A DNA stretch of 64,000 nt from Eubacteriales bacterium (GCA_045653035.1 JAZOLO010000008.1:73067-137066); one strand, 5' to 3'; shown: positions 10,125 to 60,262, numbered from the stretch's first letter. Notes: a model not told the origin generated them from the letters alone. Program-made: numbers and translations.

Positions 10125-10357
10125 TCAAAAACAAAAAATCTGTCCCCTTTTCGGGACAGATAAATCTGCTATGCCACCCATGAAAGAAGACGCATACTAT
10201 CATATGCACGTCACTGTAACGGTTGACCTCCGTCTCGCCTACTGTAAGTTCAGCTCGCCCTCCCAAGTCCATTCGGCTTCTCACCATTATCGCAATCACA
10301 CCGCCTGCGACTCTCTAAAAACGGCTTCATAAAGCTTACTATTCTTGTTCATCGGTT
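10125..10357 (-). promoter_or_regulatory. T-box leader (Trp specifier) with intrinsic terminator
   Basis: The minus strand reads AGAGAG..GGTGAGA.. in stem I. The specifier-loop candidate GAA-TGG-A has its TGG at about 10269-10271. The T-box sequence TGGGTGGCATAGCAG (10166-10180) is followed by the terminator CTGTCCCGAAAAGGGGACAG+TTTTTTG. Confidence 0.8.
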
Positions 10358-10363
10358 TAAGTA

Positions 10364-11979: not shown

Positions 11980-12185
11980 AAAATAAAAATAGTTATGAGG
12001 TGCTTACACTCATAACCAAAGTCACAAATGATAGCACTCCACATTAAATGTGACAGTTGAATACATATTCTGCATTCACCCAACCTGCAAGAATAAAGCT
12101 CTCCTTACAGATTTCGGCGATATCTCCTTTTACCGTCCCTAGCCTTCGGGGTGTCACGGCTACTTATAGGCATCGCACCTCTATC
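11980..12185 (-). promoter_or_regulatory. Lysine riboswitch (L-box) with terminator
   Basis: The minus strand reads GATAGAGGTGCGATG..AGTAGCC..GGTAAAAGGAGATATCGCCGAAATC..GGAGAGC..TGGGTGAATGCAG..CAACTGTCAC..GGAGTGCTATC. This is followed by the terminator GGTTATGAG-N9-CTCATAAC+TATTTTTATTTT. Confidence 0.85.
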
Positions 12186-12240
12186 GTCATTATGTTAACA
12201 AAAATATCACAATTTGTCAAGATTTTTTTATAATTTGTCG

Positions 12241-53118: not shown

Positions 53119-53472
53119 TTAAAATATAAAATAATATTTTTTGAAAATGATAAAAATGTTAAGAAATTTTGCACATATTGACGAAATCAGCATTACTCTA
53201 ATGCTCGTACAGGCGGAATCAAGATTTTTATAGAAAAGTTCAAGCCAACAACCTGTTTCGTTGGCTTCTTTGAGTGCAATTTGAAGTTTTGATATAAAGT
53301 CTGCTTTACCGTGAGCATATTGCGCTTTGCGGATGTTTGCGCCGATAGAGGTGCCGCTTCTGCCGATTTGGTTAGATATTATGGATTCTCGTTTTTCTTT
53401 AAGTGATTTTACAAGATTTATGATTTGAACTGCAAAATCTAACGACATATCTCGTAATTTGCTTTCGGACAT
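53119..53472 (-). CDS. Four-helix-bundle protein (23S rRNA intervening-sequence protein/Avd-like family), variant copy with aberrant C-terminus
   Basis: RSGTSIGANIRKAQ and KLQIALKEANET motifs are present. Relative to the copy at 57257-57607 it lacks about 13 aa and reads through into a hydrophobic tail. Confidence 0.65.
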   Translation of the reverse strand: MSESKLRDMSLDFAVQIINLVKSLKEKRESIISNQIGRSGTSIGANIRKAQYAHGKADFISKLQIALKEANETGCWLELFYKNLDSACTSIRVMLISSICAKFLNIFIIFKKYYFIF

Positions 53473-53493: not shown

Positions 53494-53522
53494 ATTATAC
53501 TACAGTTTTTAGTGAAGTGCAA
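53494..53522 (-). promoter_or_regulatory. Possible promoter between ladder 1 and its four-helix-bundle gene
   Basis: TTGCAC-N17-TATAAT on the minus strand. The -35 overlaps the last 7-mer of the ladder. Confidence 0.35.
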
Positions 53523-53683
53523 GGCTTTGCCTTACATGAAGTTATGGCTTACGCCATAATGAAGTTTTGTGTTACGCACAAAGTGAAGTTAAGTGTGCCA
53601 CCCACGCCCGCAGGCACTTCACTTGCCAAAGGCATACTTCACGCACCGAAGGTGTGCTTATCGTGCCGCAAGGCACACTTAGT
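53512..53683 (-). repeat. Hairpin ladder 1: four RTGAAGT 7-mers, then ACTTCAC x2 plus two degenerate copies, separated by unrelated short hairpins
   Basis: Plus-strand 7-mers lie at 53512, 53536, 53559 and 53583. Their complements lie at 53616 and 53636, with degenerate copies near 53657 and 53677. The intervening 13-17 nt segments are each self-complementary. Confidence 0.8.
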
Positions 53684-53685
53684 TG

Positions 53686-53719
53686 AAAAAAGACCTTGTC
53701 TTTTGACAAGGTCTTTTTT
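53686..53719 (-). terminator. Intrinsic terminator of the tRNA operon
   Basis: aaaaaagaccttgtc-N4-gacaaggtctttttt. Confidence 0.85.
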
Positions 53720-57256: not shown

Positions 57257-57607
57257 TCAATTTTTCTTTGCTGTAGTTATAGAAGCAATAAGCAGTTTTC
57301 TAATTTTACTGCATTTGTCAAACATATCCGCGTACTCATCTTCAGCTATCATTTTAGTATCTTTAAAAAGTCCTAACCAGTAATCACTTTCATAACATTC
57401 TTTCAAGGCTATCTGAAACTTATTTATAAAATCTGCTTTACTCGCTGCATAATTTGCTTCGTGGATATTAGCTCCAATGCTTGTGCCACTTCTCAAAAGT
57501 TGATTTAACAGCACATTTCCTTTTCTGTTTTCCTTTATCTCTGTACACAGATTAACAATATCAACTGCAAATTGTTTTGATAAATCTACAAGTTTATTTT
57601 CTTTCAT
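57257..57607 (-). CDS. Four-helix-bundle protein (23S rRNA intervening-sequence protein/Avd-like family), intact copy
   Basis: RSGTSIGANIHEANYA and KFQIALKECYESDYWL motifs are present. It is 116 aa long with a GGAG RBS. Confidence 0.75.
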   Translation of the reverse strand: MKENKLVDLSKQFAVDIVNLCTEIKENRKGNVLLNQLLRSGTSIGANIHEANYAASKADFINKFQIALKECYESDYWLGLFKDTKMIAEDEYADMFDKCSKIRKLLIASITTAKKN

Positions 57608-57623
57608 ATCATTACTCCATTTA

Positions 57624-57808
57624 ATGAATTGACAACTCCGTTGTCATGAATTGGTGTCTCGCCATGAATTGTTGTAAGCAACATGAATTGAATTGCCTTT
57701 AAAATGCACGAAGTGCAATTCATGAGCCACAAGGCTCAATTCATGAAATCGCAGATTTCAATTCACGCCGTCAGGCAATTCATTGATTTCAAGCTTCGCT
57801 TGAAATCA
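57624..57808 (-). repeat. Hairpin ladder 2: ATGAATT x4, central stem-loop, AATTCAT/C x4, separated by unrelated short hairpins; terminal 11 bp-arm palindrome
   Basis: Plus-strand 7-mers lie at 57624, 57646, 57664 and 57683. Their complements lie at 57717, 57738, 57760 and 57777. Hairpins such as gacaac-tcc-gttgtc, gttg-taag-caac, gagcc-acaa-ggctc and gaaatc-gca-gatttc sit between them. The palindrome tgatttcaagc-ttc-gcttgaaatca spans 57784-57808. Confidence 0.85.
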
Positions 57809-57836
57809 TTGTAGCACATTTAATCAAAATTTGCAA
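57808..57836 (-). promoter_or_regulatory. Promoter reading into ladder 2 and the four-helix-bundle gene
   Basis: TTGCAA-N17-TACAAT with an upstream TG, on the minus strand. The -10 abuts the terminal palindrome. Confidence 0.5.
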
Positions 57837-57840
57837 CTAA

Positions 57841-57866
57841 AAGAAAAACCGCCCAAAGGCGGTTTC
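57841..57866 (-). terminator. Intrinsic terminator after the LOG-family gene
   Basis: aaaccgcc-N4-ggcggttt followed by TTCTTTT on the minus strand. Confidence 0.85.
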
Positions 57867-58637: not shown

Positions 58638-60044
58638 TTATTTCTTTGCAGCTTTTTTTACTAAATTACAAAGTGCTATAAGACCGATAACGTTGGGAAG
58701 TACCATGAGGTAGTTGAAGAAGTCGGTAAGCTCCCATACAAGGTCGTTCTTAAGAGTTGTTCCAAGGAAGATAAATACAATTGCTACGATTGAGTAAATA
58801 ACTGTTGCAGCCTTTGAGTTCTTGAAGAGGTACTGAACGTTTATCTTACCAAAGAAGTTCCAGCTAAGAATTGTGGAATAAGCAAAGAAGAGAAGACAAA
58901 TTGCAACAAATACACTGCCTATAGCATCGGGCACGACTGTACCGTAAGCCATCTGCATAGCGTTTGTCTTCATGATACCCTGTTCAGCAATAGCCGCAGC
59001 ATAATCAGAGCTTGCAAGAAGTCCGCCCTCTCCAACGTAAAGTGTGGAGATAACAACGAGTGCGGTCATTGTAAGAACTATGAAGGTGTCGATGAATACA
59101 CCGATCATAGCAACAACGCCCTGGTCGTGAGGCTTCTCAACGTTTGCCTGCGCGTGAGCATGAGGTGTTGAACCCATACCTGCTTCGTTAGAGAAAAGAC
59201 CTCTCTTTGCACCCTGACTGATTGCAGTCTTAAGAGCGTAGCCTATACCACCACCGATAAGAGCATCGGGAGTGAATGCATACTTAAAGATTGCACCGAT
59301 GGTTGCTGGGAGATACTGAATACGGCAAGCAAGAATAACGATACCGCCCACAAGGAAAAGACCTGCCATGAAAGGAACCATCTTTTCTGTGACGGATGCA
59401 ATTCTCTGTATACCGCCTATAAAGATGATAGCTGAAACTACCGCAAGAATAACACCTATAATCCAGCCCCATGCAGTATAATCAACCTTTGCGGCAGAGC
59501 AAATTGCCTCTGCAATTGAGTTGGACTGTACCATTGAACCCATAAAGCCGAGAGCAAGGATAGCGGCAATAGAGAAGAACACTGCAAGGAATTTACCAAA
59601 TCCGCCTGTAAATGCTTTCTTTATGTAGTAAACGGGACCGCCGTGTACTTCACCGTTTTCATCAACTGCTCTTGTTTCCTGTGCAAGTACTGCCTCGGCA
59701 TAGATTGTTGCCATACCAAGGAAAGCTATAACCCACATCCAGAAGATTGCACCGGGACCACCGATTAGGATTGCACCTGACGCACCAACGATGTTACCTG
59801 TTCCTACCTGTGCGGCAATTGCAGTAGCGAGTGCCTGGAAGGAGCTGAGTCCTCCCGCCTGCTTTCCGCCCGAAAGCTTGAAGTTGCCAAATACCTTTTT
59901 CATTCCTTCGCCAAAGCAGCGAAGCTGAACGAAGCGTGTTTTAATCGAAAACAGAAGACCTGTACCTACGAGAAGGATTATAAGGATATAATCCGACAGG
60001 TAGGCGTTTGCTGCTGCTACGATTTCAAGAATTTTGTCTTGCAT
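58638..60044 (-). CDS. Alanine/glycine:cation symporter (AGCS family)
   Basis: It shows an AGCS-type N-terminus and topology, and it sits downstream of a glycine riboswitch. Confidence 0.85.
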   Translation of the reverse strand: MQDKILEIVAAANAYLSDYILIILLVGTGLLFSIKTRFVQLRCFGEGMKKVFGNFKLSGGKQAGGLSSFQALATAIAAQVGTGNIVGASGAILIGGPGAIFWMWVIAFLGMATIYAEAVLAQETRAVDENGEVHGGPVYYIKKAFTGGFGKFLAVFFSIAAILALGFMGSMVQSNSIAEAICSAAKVDYTAWGWIIGVILAVVSAIIFIGGIQRIASVTEKMVPFMAGLFLVGGIVILACRIQYLPATIGAIFKYAFTPDALIGGGIGYALKTAISQGAKRGLFSNEAGMGSTPHAHAQANVEKPHDQGVVAMIGVFIDTFIVLTMTALVVISTLYVGEGGLLASSDYAAAIAEQGIMKTNAMQMAYGTVVPDAIGSVFVAICLLFFAYSTILSWNFFGKINVQYLFKNSKAATVIYSIVAIVFIFLGTTLKNDLVWELTDFFNYLMVLPNVIGLIALCNLVKKAAKK

Positions 60045-60060
60045 GATAAGACCTCCTAAA

Positions 60061-60262
60061 AATAAAAAAAGTTACTGTAAAAGTAACTCCGGAAAAAATA
60101 CACAATACACACCATTTGTGGCTTGTGTTAACTCTATCCTTTTGCCTGAGAGATTCGGCTTACAGCCTTGCACCTTCGGCACTCAAATGAATGAGATTCT
60201 CCAGAGTTCCCTGATTTTACGGTTCTTTCGTTCCGCAAAACTTCAGCGGGTATTTAATTTAC
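60061..60262 (-). promoter_or_regulatory. Glycine riboswitch leader (one clear aptamer) with terminator
   Basis: The minus strand reads CTCTGGAGAATCTC..GTGCCGAAGGTGCAAGGC..CTCTCAGGCAAAAGGATAGAG (about 60133-60212). This is followed by the terminator AGTTACTTTTACAGTAACT+TTTTTTATTTTT. Confidence 0.8.

What the first reader, a model, noticed from the sequence alone, without database searches (positions are those of the whole stretch)
57608..57836. Hairpin ladder upstream of an intact four-helix-bundle (23S-IVS/Avd-like) gene
The 230 nt between a good promoter (TTGCAA-N17-TACAAT) and the gene's RBS has a strict architecture. ATGAATT occurs 4 times, each followed by a different short self-complementary segment. 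A central stem-loop follows. Then the exact complement AATTCAT(/C) occurs 4 times, again interleaved with unrelated hairpins. If the 7-mers pair in nested fashion (4th with 5th, 3rd with 6th, and so on), the transcript would fold into a stack of four-way junctions. The last AATTCAT lies 16 nt from the start codon, right next to the GGAG RBS. Conserved 7-mers combined with variable but always palindromic spacers is the opposite of REP/BIME or CRISPR logic. I cannot match it to a riboswitch or leader family I know. The outermost 11 bp-arm palindrome overlaps the -10/TSS, so a DNA operator role is also possible.
Basis: seen in the sequence. Interest (0 to 1): 0.72.

Follow-up and report, generated by a model that had tools for sequence, protein, structure and literature searches.

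The report
Dyad hairpin-array repeat, Gut-1 relative
The "hairpin ladder" is real and is one copy of a widespread, two-armed array of mini-hairpins separated by a fixed 7-letter word; its left arm is the orphan Rfam motif Gut-1, it travels with matching clades of an uncharacterised four-helix-bundle gene family, and its function is still unknown.

Summary
The region holds an 11-bp-arm palindrome at the promoter, four [A/G]TGAATT words each followed by a different G...C mini-hairpin, an AT-rich centre, and four AATTCAT words with hairpins, ending 16 nt before the start of a PF05635 four-helix-bundle (4HB) gene.

It is not unmatched. The left arm is a sub-threshold relative of Rfam Gut-1 (RF01706). 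The published Gut-1 alignment carries the unannotated right arm in its flanks.

I collected about 100 copies from gut Oscillospirales. All units of one element share one 7-mer, with the reverse complement in the right arm. Six 7-mer types each go with their own 4HB group. Hairpins change by compensatory substitution.

One long-range helix covaries (P1: first word plus first hairpin arm with the centre).

In a protein-blind sample, most ladders stand alone after gene ends.

Loop classes are mirror-symmetric (TNC left, GNA/GNNA right, matching the stable DNA mini-hairpin motif), and mini-hairpins show no G·U excess. This leans towards reading as DNA.

My best guess, at low confidence, is that the hairpins display the 7-mers to a type-specific binder, probably the neighbouring 4HB protein.

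The parts
57808..57836 (-). Sigma-A type promoter TTGCAA-N17-TACAAT with TG upstream of the -10.
   Evidence: In related 'type a' copies, equivalent promoters (TTGAAA/TTGCAA-N17-TGTGnTATAAT) abut the first palindrome.
57784..57808 (-). Hairpin0: anchor palindrome TGATTTCAAGC-GAA-GCTTGAAATCA. It overlaps the -10 and the expected transcription start.
   Evidence: A hairpin flush with the first 7-mer is present in 49 unique relatives. Its mismatches are G.U 9 to A.C 1.
57717..57783 (-). Left arm. L1 57777-57783, H1 57767-57776, L2 (GTGAATT) 57760-57766, H2 57745-57759, L3 57738-57744, H3 57724-57737, L4 57717-57723.
   Evidence: H2 and H3 show compensatory changes in 47 aligned relatives.
57706..57716 (-).
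57774..57782 (-). P1, 5' strand: TGAATT of L1 plus GCC, the 5' arm of H1.
   Evidence: It pairs with 57689-57697. Covariation is shown across elements.
57689..57705 (-). AT-rich centre ATTTTAAA followed by the P1 3' strand GGC+AATTCA (57689-57697).
57624..57689 (-). Right arm. R1 57683-57689, Ha 57671-57682, R2 57664-57670, Hb 57653-57663, R3 57646-57652, Hc 57631-57645, R4 57624-57630.
   Evidence: The loop classes of this arm across relatives are GNA/GNNA.
57605..57623 (-). TAAAT-GGAG-N7-ATG: ribosome-binding site and start codon of the 4HB gene.
57257..57607 (-). Four-helix-bundle gene, 116 aa (PF05635 / TIGR02436).
   Evidence: Pfam E = 5e-25 and NCBIfam E = 1.5e-28. PDB 2RLD E = 6e-27. 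More than 8000 homologues.
53512..53719 (-). Second copy, GTGAAGT type. It comprises the tRNA terminator acting as hairpin0 (53686-53719), the P1 5' strand CTAAGTGTGCC (53672-53682), left words at 53636-53642 and 53616-53622 plus degenerate ones, the centre with the P1 3' strand GGCACACTTA (53590-53599), and right words at 53583-53589, 53559-53565, 53536-53542 and 53512-53518.
   Evidence: Gut-1 hit 53611-53685, 42.7 bits.
53494..53522 (-). Promoter-like TTGCAC-N17-TATAAT downstream of the copy-2 ladder. Its -35 overlaps the last hairpin and the last 7-mer.
   Evidence: Read directly from the sequence. The consensus scan did not list it.
53140..53472 (-). Paralogous 4HB gene, 50% identical. 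It appears to be decaying: it has an internal gap and an aberrant C-terminus compared with L080.

Best explanation
The stretch is one copy of a modular, two-armed hairpin-array element of gut Oscillospirales. Rfam models only its left arm, as 'Gut-1'.

A unit is an AT-rich 7-mer followed by a GC-rich mini-hairpin. The stem runs G...C, the closing pair is C-G, and the loop is 3-4 nt of free sequence. About four units make the left arm and about four units with the reverse-complement word make the right arm. A longer anchor hairpin precedes the array.

Shown:
- The hairpins, and one long-range helix, are kept by compensatory change. The helix (P1) joins the first word plus the 5' arm of the first hairpin to the centre.
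- The 7-mer is uniform within an element but differs between element types.
- Each type sits next to its own group of 4HB genes.

Inferred mechanism: the palindromes fold out of a single strand, or out of a melted duplex. This leaves the AT-rich 7-mers exposed as a regular array of recognition sites for a type-specific factor. The best candidate for that factor is the pentamer-type 4HB protein encoded alongside. Because the array lies between promoter and ribosome-binding site (copy 1) or over the -35 (copy 2), binding would feed back on the 4HB gene. Stand-alone arrays elsewhere would be further sites for the same factor.

Whether the strand that is read is DNA or RNA is not settled. The mirror symmetry of the loops and the working half-arrays of either orientation make me favour DNA, or both.
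For: Conservation:
- Virtually all of the 80 best genome hits carry the ladder directly upstream of the start codon. Each hit comes from a different GTDB species, and the proteins are 82-95% identical.
- The gene is old, not recently spread. Amino-acid identity is 0.91, but third-codon identity is only 0.57.

Single-strand folding:
- 238 unique spacers pair flush at 69% Watson-Crick against 27% when shuffled.
- H2 and H3 pairs show 15-27 double changes in 47 sequences.
- P1 has a covariation score of 0.218 against 0.085 +/- 0.011 (0 of 500 shuffles reach it), with three or four pair types at two positions. The same test with L4 gives 0.110 against 0.090.
- Unit length varies from 16 to 23 nt, so there is no helical phasing for plain duplex sites.

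Type-specific word:
- ATGAATT, GTGAAGT, GTGATAT, GTGAGAT, TCGATAT and RTGAAAT are each homogeneous within an element and are linked to six 4HB groups.
- L283 keeps ATGAATT together with a protein whose N-terminal half alone stays similar.

Reading that does not depend on orientation:
- Left-only arrays (L340, 14 contigs) and right-only arrays (L345, 24+ contigs) precede intact 4HB genes.

Leaning towards DNA:
- Left-arm loops are TNC/TNNC and right-arm loops are GNA/GNNA. First base T versus G gives Fisher p = 5e-15. Together with the near-universal C-G closing pair, this is cGNAg/cGNNAg, the extraordinarily stable DNA mini-hairpin motif (PMC13037366, PMC3201870). It lies on opposite strands in the two arms.
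- Most right-arm tetraloops are not RNA-type GNRA.
- Mini-hairpin mismatches are G.U 11 and A.C 10.
- Copy 2, and several Gut-1 examples, start right after an intrinsic terminator with no promoter in between.
- The closest solved relative, 2RLD, has five chains of this sequence in its one PDB entry. PF05635 is structurally related to Avd of diversity-generating retroelements (PMC10053308).
Against: - No binding data exist, and 4HB proteins are not known to bind nucleic acid sequence-specifically. By my count from the sequence, this one has a net charge of only about +2.
- The link between 7-mer type and protein group could be plain co-inheritance of neighbours.
- Most ladders in the protein-blind sample have no 4HB gene beside them. 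The matching gene would then have to act in trans, which I could not check.
- Strand-specific features point to a sense-strand RNA. Hairpin0 tolerates G.U but not A.C (9 to 1). The element is almost always co-oriented with the upstream gene. In 'type a' copies a strong promoter makes it a 5' UTR.
- P1 breaks the dyad symmetry.
- The G.U = A.C result rests on only 21 mismatches in very short stems.
Confidence: 0.35

Rival explanations
1. Sense-strand RNA element. It would act as the 5' leader of the 4HB mRNA, and as a 3'-UTR or intercistronic element elsewhere. It folds into alternative structures, either the first hairpin H1 or the long-range P1, with or without pairing between left and right words. 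In this way it would control translation or protect the transcript. Rfam classes Gut-1 as an sRNA.
For: - A promoter abuts the array in type-a copies, and the last word lies 4-16 nt from the Shine-Dalgarno sequence.
- There is no terminator between the methyltransferase gene and the ladder in about half of the loci.
- One stand-alone ladder is followed by an intrinsic terminator (L241).
- Hairpin0 mismatches are G.U 9 to A.C 1.
- H1 and P1 are mutually exclusive, as in expression platforms.
- The minimum free energy has z = -4.87.
- Weinberg et al. rated Gut-1 as 'certainly' an RNA.
Against: - The mirror-image loop classes have no explanation in a single RNA. Loop-loop kissing is not supported: 20 complementary pairs observed against 19.6 expected.
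- The mini-hairpins show no G.U excess.
- R2 and R4 carry conserved mismatches.
- Right-only and left-only arrays would give unrelated single-stranded words in RNA.
- Copies sit directly behind terminators.
- The uniformity of the word within an element is not needed for pairing.
Confidence: 0.25
2. REP/BIME- or REPIN-like repeated extragenic palindrome family. It would spread or be maintained through folded ssDNA by a recombinase or nuclease acting in trans. The 4HB gene would be either cargo or a RAYT-like single-copy partner flanked by its cognate repeats.
For: - The identical protein plus ladder occurs in at least 6 genomic contexts, with reassorted flanks.
- There are ladder-4HB-ladder direct repeats (L092) and tandem ladders (L037, L064; Gut-1 hits every 240 nt in BAAZ01000130).
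- Unit number varies (L060, L063).
- Ladders occur preferentially just after terminators, tRNA genes and the 3' end of m5U methyltransferase genes.
- Stand-alone copies lie in intergenic regions.
- Each repeat type is paired with one protein clade, as in RAYT-REPIN systems (that comparison is my own knowledge).
Against: - No transposase or recombinase is linked to the element in any locus examined.
- Hairpin sequences are not conserved between copies, unlike REP.
- The methyltransferase-ladder-4HB locus is old and appears vertically inherited.
- 4HB proteins have no known nuclease motifs.
- No empty site was recovered.
Confidence: 0.25
3. Integron-like attC recombination site that bounds gene cassettes.
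For: - Ladders lie upstream of successive unrelated ORFs in the same orientation (L037, L065, L315).
- Partial copies of the methyltransferase 3' end (..THVESVVCL..) recur behind cassettes.
- Structure is conserved while sequence is variable, and 7-bp complementary boxes are present.
- Cargo is defence-like.
Against: - No integrase is seen in the 3-10 kb flanks that I examined.
- The architecture differs from attC: 4+4 boxes with branching hairpins, not R''-L''/L'-R'.
- Many ladders are isolated.
- Half-ladders exist.
Confidence: 0.08

Closest known systems
Rfam Gut-1 RNA motif (RF01706; Weinberg et al. 2010, PMC2864571)
   Same: Gut-1 has three hairpins of free sequence separated by a conserved 7-mer (GUGAAAU) and comes from the human gut. 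The Gut-1 model aligns end to end with the left arm of copy 2 and with other ladders. Flanks in the published alignment contain the right arm and P1, and in one case a 4HB gene.
   Different: Rfam models only 77 nt. The right arm, the anchor hairpin, P1, the alternative 7-mer types and the gene association are not described. Copy 1 (ATGAATT type) is not detected at all, and every ladder tested scores below the gathering threshold. No function is known for Gut-1.
REP/BIME and REPIN-RAYT systems of proteobacteria
   Same: Both are extragenic palindromic units clustered in direct and inverted orientation after gene ends, with a short conserved word next to each hairpin. In both, a repeat class is paired with a flanked, conserved, single protein gene.
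   Different: Here the hairpin sequence is free and only the 7-mer is fixed. The partner is a 116-aa helical bundle, not an HUH tyrosine transposase. Mobility is not shown.
ssDNA initiation and priming signals that use cGNAg/cGNNAg mini-hairpins (phage G4, St-1 and alpha3 origins; RSF1010 ssiA/ssiB; N4 promoters; PMC13037366)
   Same: The loop and closing-pair chemistry is the same. In RSF1010 the signals lie on opposite strands around a centre (that last point is my own knowledge).
   Different: Those are single hairpins on replicons. Here there are arrays with a type-specific word, on chromosomes, placed at a gene start.
Avd / PF05635 proteins of diversity-generating retroelements
   Same: The gene belongs to the family (Pfam and NCBIfam hits). 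DGR targets also use a DNA hairpin or cruciform (own knowledge).
   Different: None of the identified neighbours is a reverse transcriptase. By sequence the protein matches only 2RLD in the PDB, not Avd.
Multi-site protein-binding RNAs and arrays (TRAP leader, RsmZ, type III ToxI repeats)
   Same: All have repeated short motifs presented between or beside hairpins, upstream of the partner gene.
   Different: The complementary right arm and the mirror-symmetric loops have no counterpart there. ToxI units are identical repeats and are cut off from the gene by a terminator.

Membership tests
Rfam Gut-1 (RF01706) | Three consecutive hairpins separated and flanked by a conserved GUGAAAU-like 7-mer. 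| tested here: met
   The architecture is identical. The covariance model aligns positions 1-77 to copy 2 and to ATGAATT-type and GTGAAGT-type ladders.
Rfam Gut-1 (RF01706) | Score at or above the curated gathering threshold (50 bits). | tested here: not met
   Copy 1 gives no hit even at E <= 10. Copy 2 scores 42.7 bits. Relatives score 33.6-44.9 bits.
Rfam Gut-1 (RF01706) | Acts as a free-standing small RNA (the Rfam type). | not testable with these tools
   No expression data are available. The contexts are mixed: 5' UTR, 3' of genes, and behind terminators.
PF05635 / TIGR02436 four-helix-bundle protein (the adjacent gene) | Profile match above the curated cut-off. | tested here: met
   Pfam 88.1 bits (cut-off 33.8). 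TIGR02436 99.2 bits (cut-off 24).
DGR accessory protein Avd | Encoded next to a reverse transcriptase with a template/variable repeat pair. | tested here: not met
   The neighbours are a LOG-family gene and an alpha/beta hydrolase. No RT appears in any annotated related locus.
REP/BIME | The palindrome sequence itself is conserved among copies in a genome. | tested here: not met
   Eight different hairpins occur within one element, and hairpins vary widely between elements. Only the 7-mer and the G/C ends are fixed.
REP/BIME | Extragenic, clustered after the 3' ends of genes, in both orientations. | tested here: met
REP/BIME | Cognate RAYT (Y1 HUH) gene. | tested here: inconclusive
   None is present in the flanks examined.
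Integron attC / gene cassette | Adjacent intI integrase and attI. | tested here: not met
   No recombinase family appears in the annotated flanks.
Integron attC / gene cassette | A single imperfect palindrome with R''/L'' and L'/R' boxes. | tested here: not met
   The element has 4+4 identical boxes separated by branch hairpins, and half-arrays exist.
CRISPR array | Conserved repeats of 24-48 nt with unique non-palindromic spacers. | tested here: not met
   The repeat is 7 nt, the spacers are palindromes, and the orientation flips at the centre.
Riboswitch or other Rfam cis-regulatory leader | Match to a curated model. | tested here: not met
   No other family reaches significance in the region.

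The most novel reading that the evidence does not exclude
PF05635 four-helix-bundle proteins, a very large orphan family that includes Avd, are sequence-specific readers of 7-nt words that are displayed between extruded DNA mini-hairpins. Each clade would co-evolve with its own genome-wide set of dyad hairpin arrays. This would be a new kind of protein-repeat partnership, comparable to RAYT-REPIN but without a transposase. It would regulate the 4HB gene itself and the cassette genes behind other arrays.
Probability: 0.2. Interest if true: 0.85.

Novelty: new variant of a known kind. Interest (0 to 1): 0.66.

Why it matters
Gut-1 has been an orphan motif since 2010, and PF05635 is a very large orphan protein family. 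My search alone returned more than 8000 close homologues. The family occurs in rRNA intervening sequences, inside CRISPR-cas loci and in diversity-generating retroelements.

Three findings turn both orphans into one testable system. The published Gut-1 model covers only one arm of a larger two-armed element. The element comes in types defined by a 7-nt word. Each type sits beside its own 4HB clade. A gel-shift assay with swapped ladder types would give a direct answer.

The design is also unusual for natural nucleic acids. The word is fixed, the hairpins are free, the loop chemistry is mirror-symmetric, and one helix (P1) competes with the first hairpin. Annotation would benefit too, because gene callers currently read through these arrays. 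Many family members are called at 150-198 aa instead of about 117 aa.

Tried and rejected
- Nested four-rung pairing. It was tested through word variants by position, extension of complementarity for every L/R combination and per-element folds. It is not supported as a conserved structure. RNAalifold on the left domain does propose L4:R0 and L1:R1, but all those pairs are invariant.
- Loop-loop kissing between the arms. There is no within-element enrichment.
- Viral origin. A scan of viral contigs gave only chance and satellite matches and no real ladder.
- Known defence system. PADLOC gives nothing meaningful for the 4HB protein. Some neighbours match AbiTii and a Fic-type candidate.
- HEPN relationship of PF05635, which I recalled from memory. 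It is not mentioned in the HEPN survey paper, so I dropped it.
- Recent horizontal spread as the reason for 90% protein identity. Rejected, because synonymous sites are near saturation.
- Strict correspondence between 7-mer type and protein clade. L283 is 56% identical overall yet has an ATGAATT ladder. Only its N-terminal half resembles the main clade.
- Literature. No paper in the library uses 'Gut-1 RNA' or 'Gut-1 motif'. The original paper says only that the motif is confined to the human gut.
- The exact window protein is not on record in the assembly index.
- The promoter scan did not list the copy-2 promoter, although it is visible in the sequence.
- I did not run a structure prediction or a whole-library profile search, because they would not discriminate between the models.

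Full report
**What is in the window**

On the minus strand the region reads as follows.
- The LOG-family gene ends in an intrinsic terminator (57839-57865).
- A promoter follows: TTGCAA-N17-TACAAT with TG (57836-57808). The consensus scan also lists it.
- Next comes a palindrome with 11-bp arms that starts on the last base of the -10 (hairpin0, 57808-57784).
- Four words follow: ATGAATT, GTGAATT, ATGAATT, ATGAATT. Each is followed by a different G...C hairpin (H1-H4).
- The centre is AT-rich and ends in GGCAATTC.
- Four AATTCAT words are interleaved with three more hairpins.
- The region ends with TAAAT-GGAG-N7-ATG of a 116-aa gene.

The gene is a PF05635/TIGR02436 four-helix-bundle (4HB) protein. 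By sequence it matches only 2RLD in the PDB.

Seven of the window's 16 exact ATGAATT sites fall in this region. A generic ladder detector finds nothing in 50 shuffles of the window. The RNA fold has z = -4.87. The observation therefore stands, with one correction: one left word is GTGAATT.

A second copy lies at 53512-53719 (-), directly behind two tRNA genes and their terminator. It has words GTGAAGT / ACTTCAC(T) and a 50%-identical 4HB paralogue that looks decayed. In that copy a good promoter, TTGCAC-N17-TATAAT, lies downstream of the array and overlaps its last unit.

**A known relative**

A permissive Rfam scan hits the left arm of copy 2 with Gut-1 (RF01706) over the whole model. The score is 42.7 bits against a gathering score of 50. 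Copy 1 is not detected.

The Gut-1 consensus is three free hairpins separated by GUGAAAU. Weinberg et al. (PMC2864571) reported it as a likely RNA found only in human gut data and said nothing more.

Their Stockholm file includes flanks, and the unannotated flanks show several features.
- They hold the right arm, for example GUGAUAU x3-4 followed by AUAUCAC x4, and GUGAAAU followed by AUUUCAC.
- They show the same placement behind a tRNA plus terminator.
- They show tandem copies every 240 nt.
- One case has a 4HB gene.

The Gut-1 model also hits the left arms of ATGAATT and GTGAAGT ladders from other loci, at 33-45 bits. The element is therefore a sub-threshold relative of Gut-1, and Gut-1 models only one arm of it.

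**Distribution**

The 4HB protein has more than 8000 homologues, and the top 120 clusters are all 88-96% identical. A genome scan gave more than 548 relatives. The 80 best come from 80 different species of gut Clostridia (Oscillospiraceae, Acutalibacteraceae and others). Virtually all carry the ATGAATT ladder directly upstream.

This is an old arrangement. Among 38 loci the proteins are 91% identical, but third-codon positions are only 57% identical.

In about half of the loci the ladder abuts the 3' end of a TRAM/m5U RNA methyltransferase gene. Hairpin0 is then formed by the codons for ..VESVVCL.. and their complement, and the stop codon lies in the first word. Other 4HB clades sit behind the same kind of gene.

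Elsewhere the identical protein plus ladder occurs in at least six contexts. A 195-bp ladder can flank the gene on both sides (L092). Ladders also occur in tandem or precede other genes (L037, L065, L315).

**Protein-blind sample**

I scanned metagenomes for CATGAATTG x3, a search that takes no account of the protein.
- The scan returned 120 loci, of which 17 also had a run of the complementary word.
- 16 of these are real ladders, and only 2-3 adjoin a 4HB gene.
- The rest stand alone after gene ends or terminators, or between convergent genes.
- They are nearly always co-oriented with the upstream gene.
- A scan of viral contigs yielded no real ladder.

**Structure under selection**

Hairpins:
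- Spacers between words pair flush at 69% Watson-Crick, against 27% when shuffled.
- In 47 aligned left domains, H2 and H3 show 15-27 double substitutions per pair.
- The closing pair is almost always C-G, and loops are 3 nt (99 cases) or 4 nt (72 cases).

A long-range helix, P1:
- TGAATT of the first word plus the 5' arm of H1 (and sometimes its loop) is complementary to the sequence just before and including the first AATTCA at the centre.
- Complementarity beyond the word averages 3.9 nt for this combination and about 1 nt for all others.
- Permutation gives 3.61 against 2.28 +/- 0.11, reached in 0 of 5000 shuffles.
- On a gap-free alignment the covariation score is 0.218 against 0.085 +/- 0.011 (0 of 500). 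Pair types are CG/GC/AU and CG/UA/AU/GC at the two positions next to the invariant part. The L4 control gives 0.110 against 0.090.
- P1 is present in the other types too. Copy 2 has CTAAGTGTGCC with GGCACACTTA, where the first and central words deviate from the canonical word in a complementary way. L350 has a 14-bp P1. The canonical Gut-1 examples also have it.
- H1 and P1 exclude each other.

**The nested ladder**

The evidence does not support it.
- R2 is AAATCAT in most elements, and R4 as well in the methyltransferase-linked lineage. Each gives an A.A mismatch with ATGAATT.
- Predicted minimum-energy folds switch between ladder-like and P1-closed forms from element to element.
- L340 (14 contigs) has five GTGATAT units and no right arm. 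L345-349 (24+ contigs) have only a right arm, with ATCTCAC. Both types precede intact 4HB genes.

Pairing between the arms is therefore possible but not required.

**Words and proteins**

Six word types were seen: ATGAATT, GTGAAGT, GTGATAT, GTGAGAT, TCGATAT and RTGAAAT. Each is uniform within its element, and each sits next to a distinct 4HB group.

Pairing alone would not force all words of an element to be the same. A shared trans-acting reader would. The 4HB protein is the only consistent neighbour.

**DNA or RNA**

For RNA:
- Hairpin0 mismatches are G.U 9 to A.C 1.
- The element is co-oriented with upstream genes.
- Strong promoters fused to the array make it a 5' UTR in many loci. There, however, the expected transcription start lies inside hairpin0.

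For DNA:
- Mini-hairpin mismatches are G.U 11 to A.C 10.
- Left-arm loops are TNC/TNNC and right-arm loops are GNA/GNNA, with p = 5e-15. These are exact complements as classes but not within elements.
- With the C-G closing pair, this is the cGNAg/cGNNAg mini-hairpin known for extreme stability in DNA and found at ssDNA priming sites (PMC13037366, PMC3201870). It lies on the strand running 5' to 3' away from the centre in both arms.
- Most right-arm tetraloops (GATA, GTTA, GACA) are not RNA-type GNRA.
- Half-arrays of either orientation serve the same genes.
- Some copies lie directly behind terminators.
- Variable unit length (16-23 nt) argues against plain duplex operator sites and for folded-out hairpins.

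**Verdict**

The finding is real, conserved and unusual. It is an extended, typed variant of a catalogued motif rather than something without precedent. Its mechanism remains open.

I favour display of type-specific 7-mers between extruded hairpins to a cognate binder, probably the 4HB protein. An RNA leader or sRNA and a REPIN-like repeat system are close rivals.

Noticed in passing
window 53140-53472 (-): The 4HB paralogue behind copy 2 lacks about 14 residues and has an unrelated C-terminal tail compared with its relative in L080, which itself has an in-frame stop. This clade seems to be decaying in both genomes, while its ladder stays intact.
   Followed up: partly
window 12024-12191 (-), 10149-10361 (-), 60124-60214 (-): A lysine riboswitch (108 bits), a T-box-like leader just under threshold (83 bits against 93), and a glycine riboswitch. 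The glycine riboswitch lies upstream of the 468-aa membrane-protein ORF at 58638-60044.
   Followed up: no
L095 1085-2420 (and the left edge of ladders in L001-L010, L083, L309): Small ORFs are separated by junction elements of about 215 bp, bounded by inverted repeats TACTCGTGTCAAG. Several ladder modules begin immediately after the right repeat (CCTGACTTGACAYGAG). This looks like a second, unrelated repeat or cassette system nested with the ladders.
   Followed up: partly
L019, L027, L030, L031, L035, L037, L047, L048, L050, L056, L061, L065 (100-3000 nt downstream of the 4HB gene): Partial copies of the methyltransferase 3' end (..PFGVLTHVESVVCL..) recur. Each is preceded by a conserved stretch of about 70 nt (TTTCCACCCC..GAGACCTTTTGGAGTCTTGACC), and another ladder often follows. 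This resembles repeated insertion at one attachment site.
   Followed up: partly
L001, L004, L008, L095, L096 downstream of the 4HB gene: The genes behind ladder-4HB units are often defence-like or orphan: AbiTii, a Fic protein matching PADLOC candidate PDC-S72 (E = 2e-161), DUF4379, DUF559, zinc-ribbon proteins.
   Followed up: partly
L340 1-1763; L350, L351: 4HB genes of other ladder types also sit directly behind TRAM/m5U RNA methyltransferase genes. In L340 the 4HB gene lies between two of them. From memory, the 23S rRNA target of RumA (GCGAAAUUCC) resembles the UGAAAU/UGAAUU words. This was not tested.
   Followed up: no
Proteins P0121-P0201: Many database gene calls for this family are 150-198 aa instead of about 117 aa. 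This is probably because ATG/GTG-starting words let gene callers read through the ladder.
   Followed up: no
window 53494-53522 (-): TTGCAC-N17-TATAAT matches the consensus at 11 of 12 positions, but the promoter scan did not report it although it meets the stated rule.
   Followed up: yes
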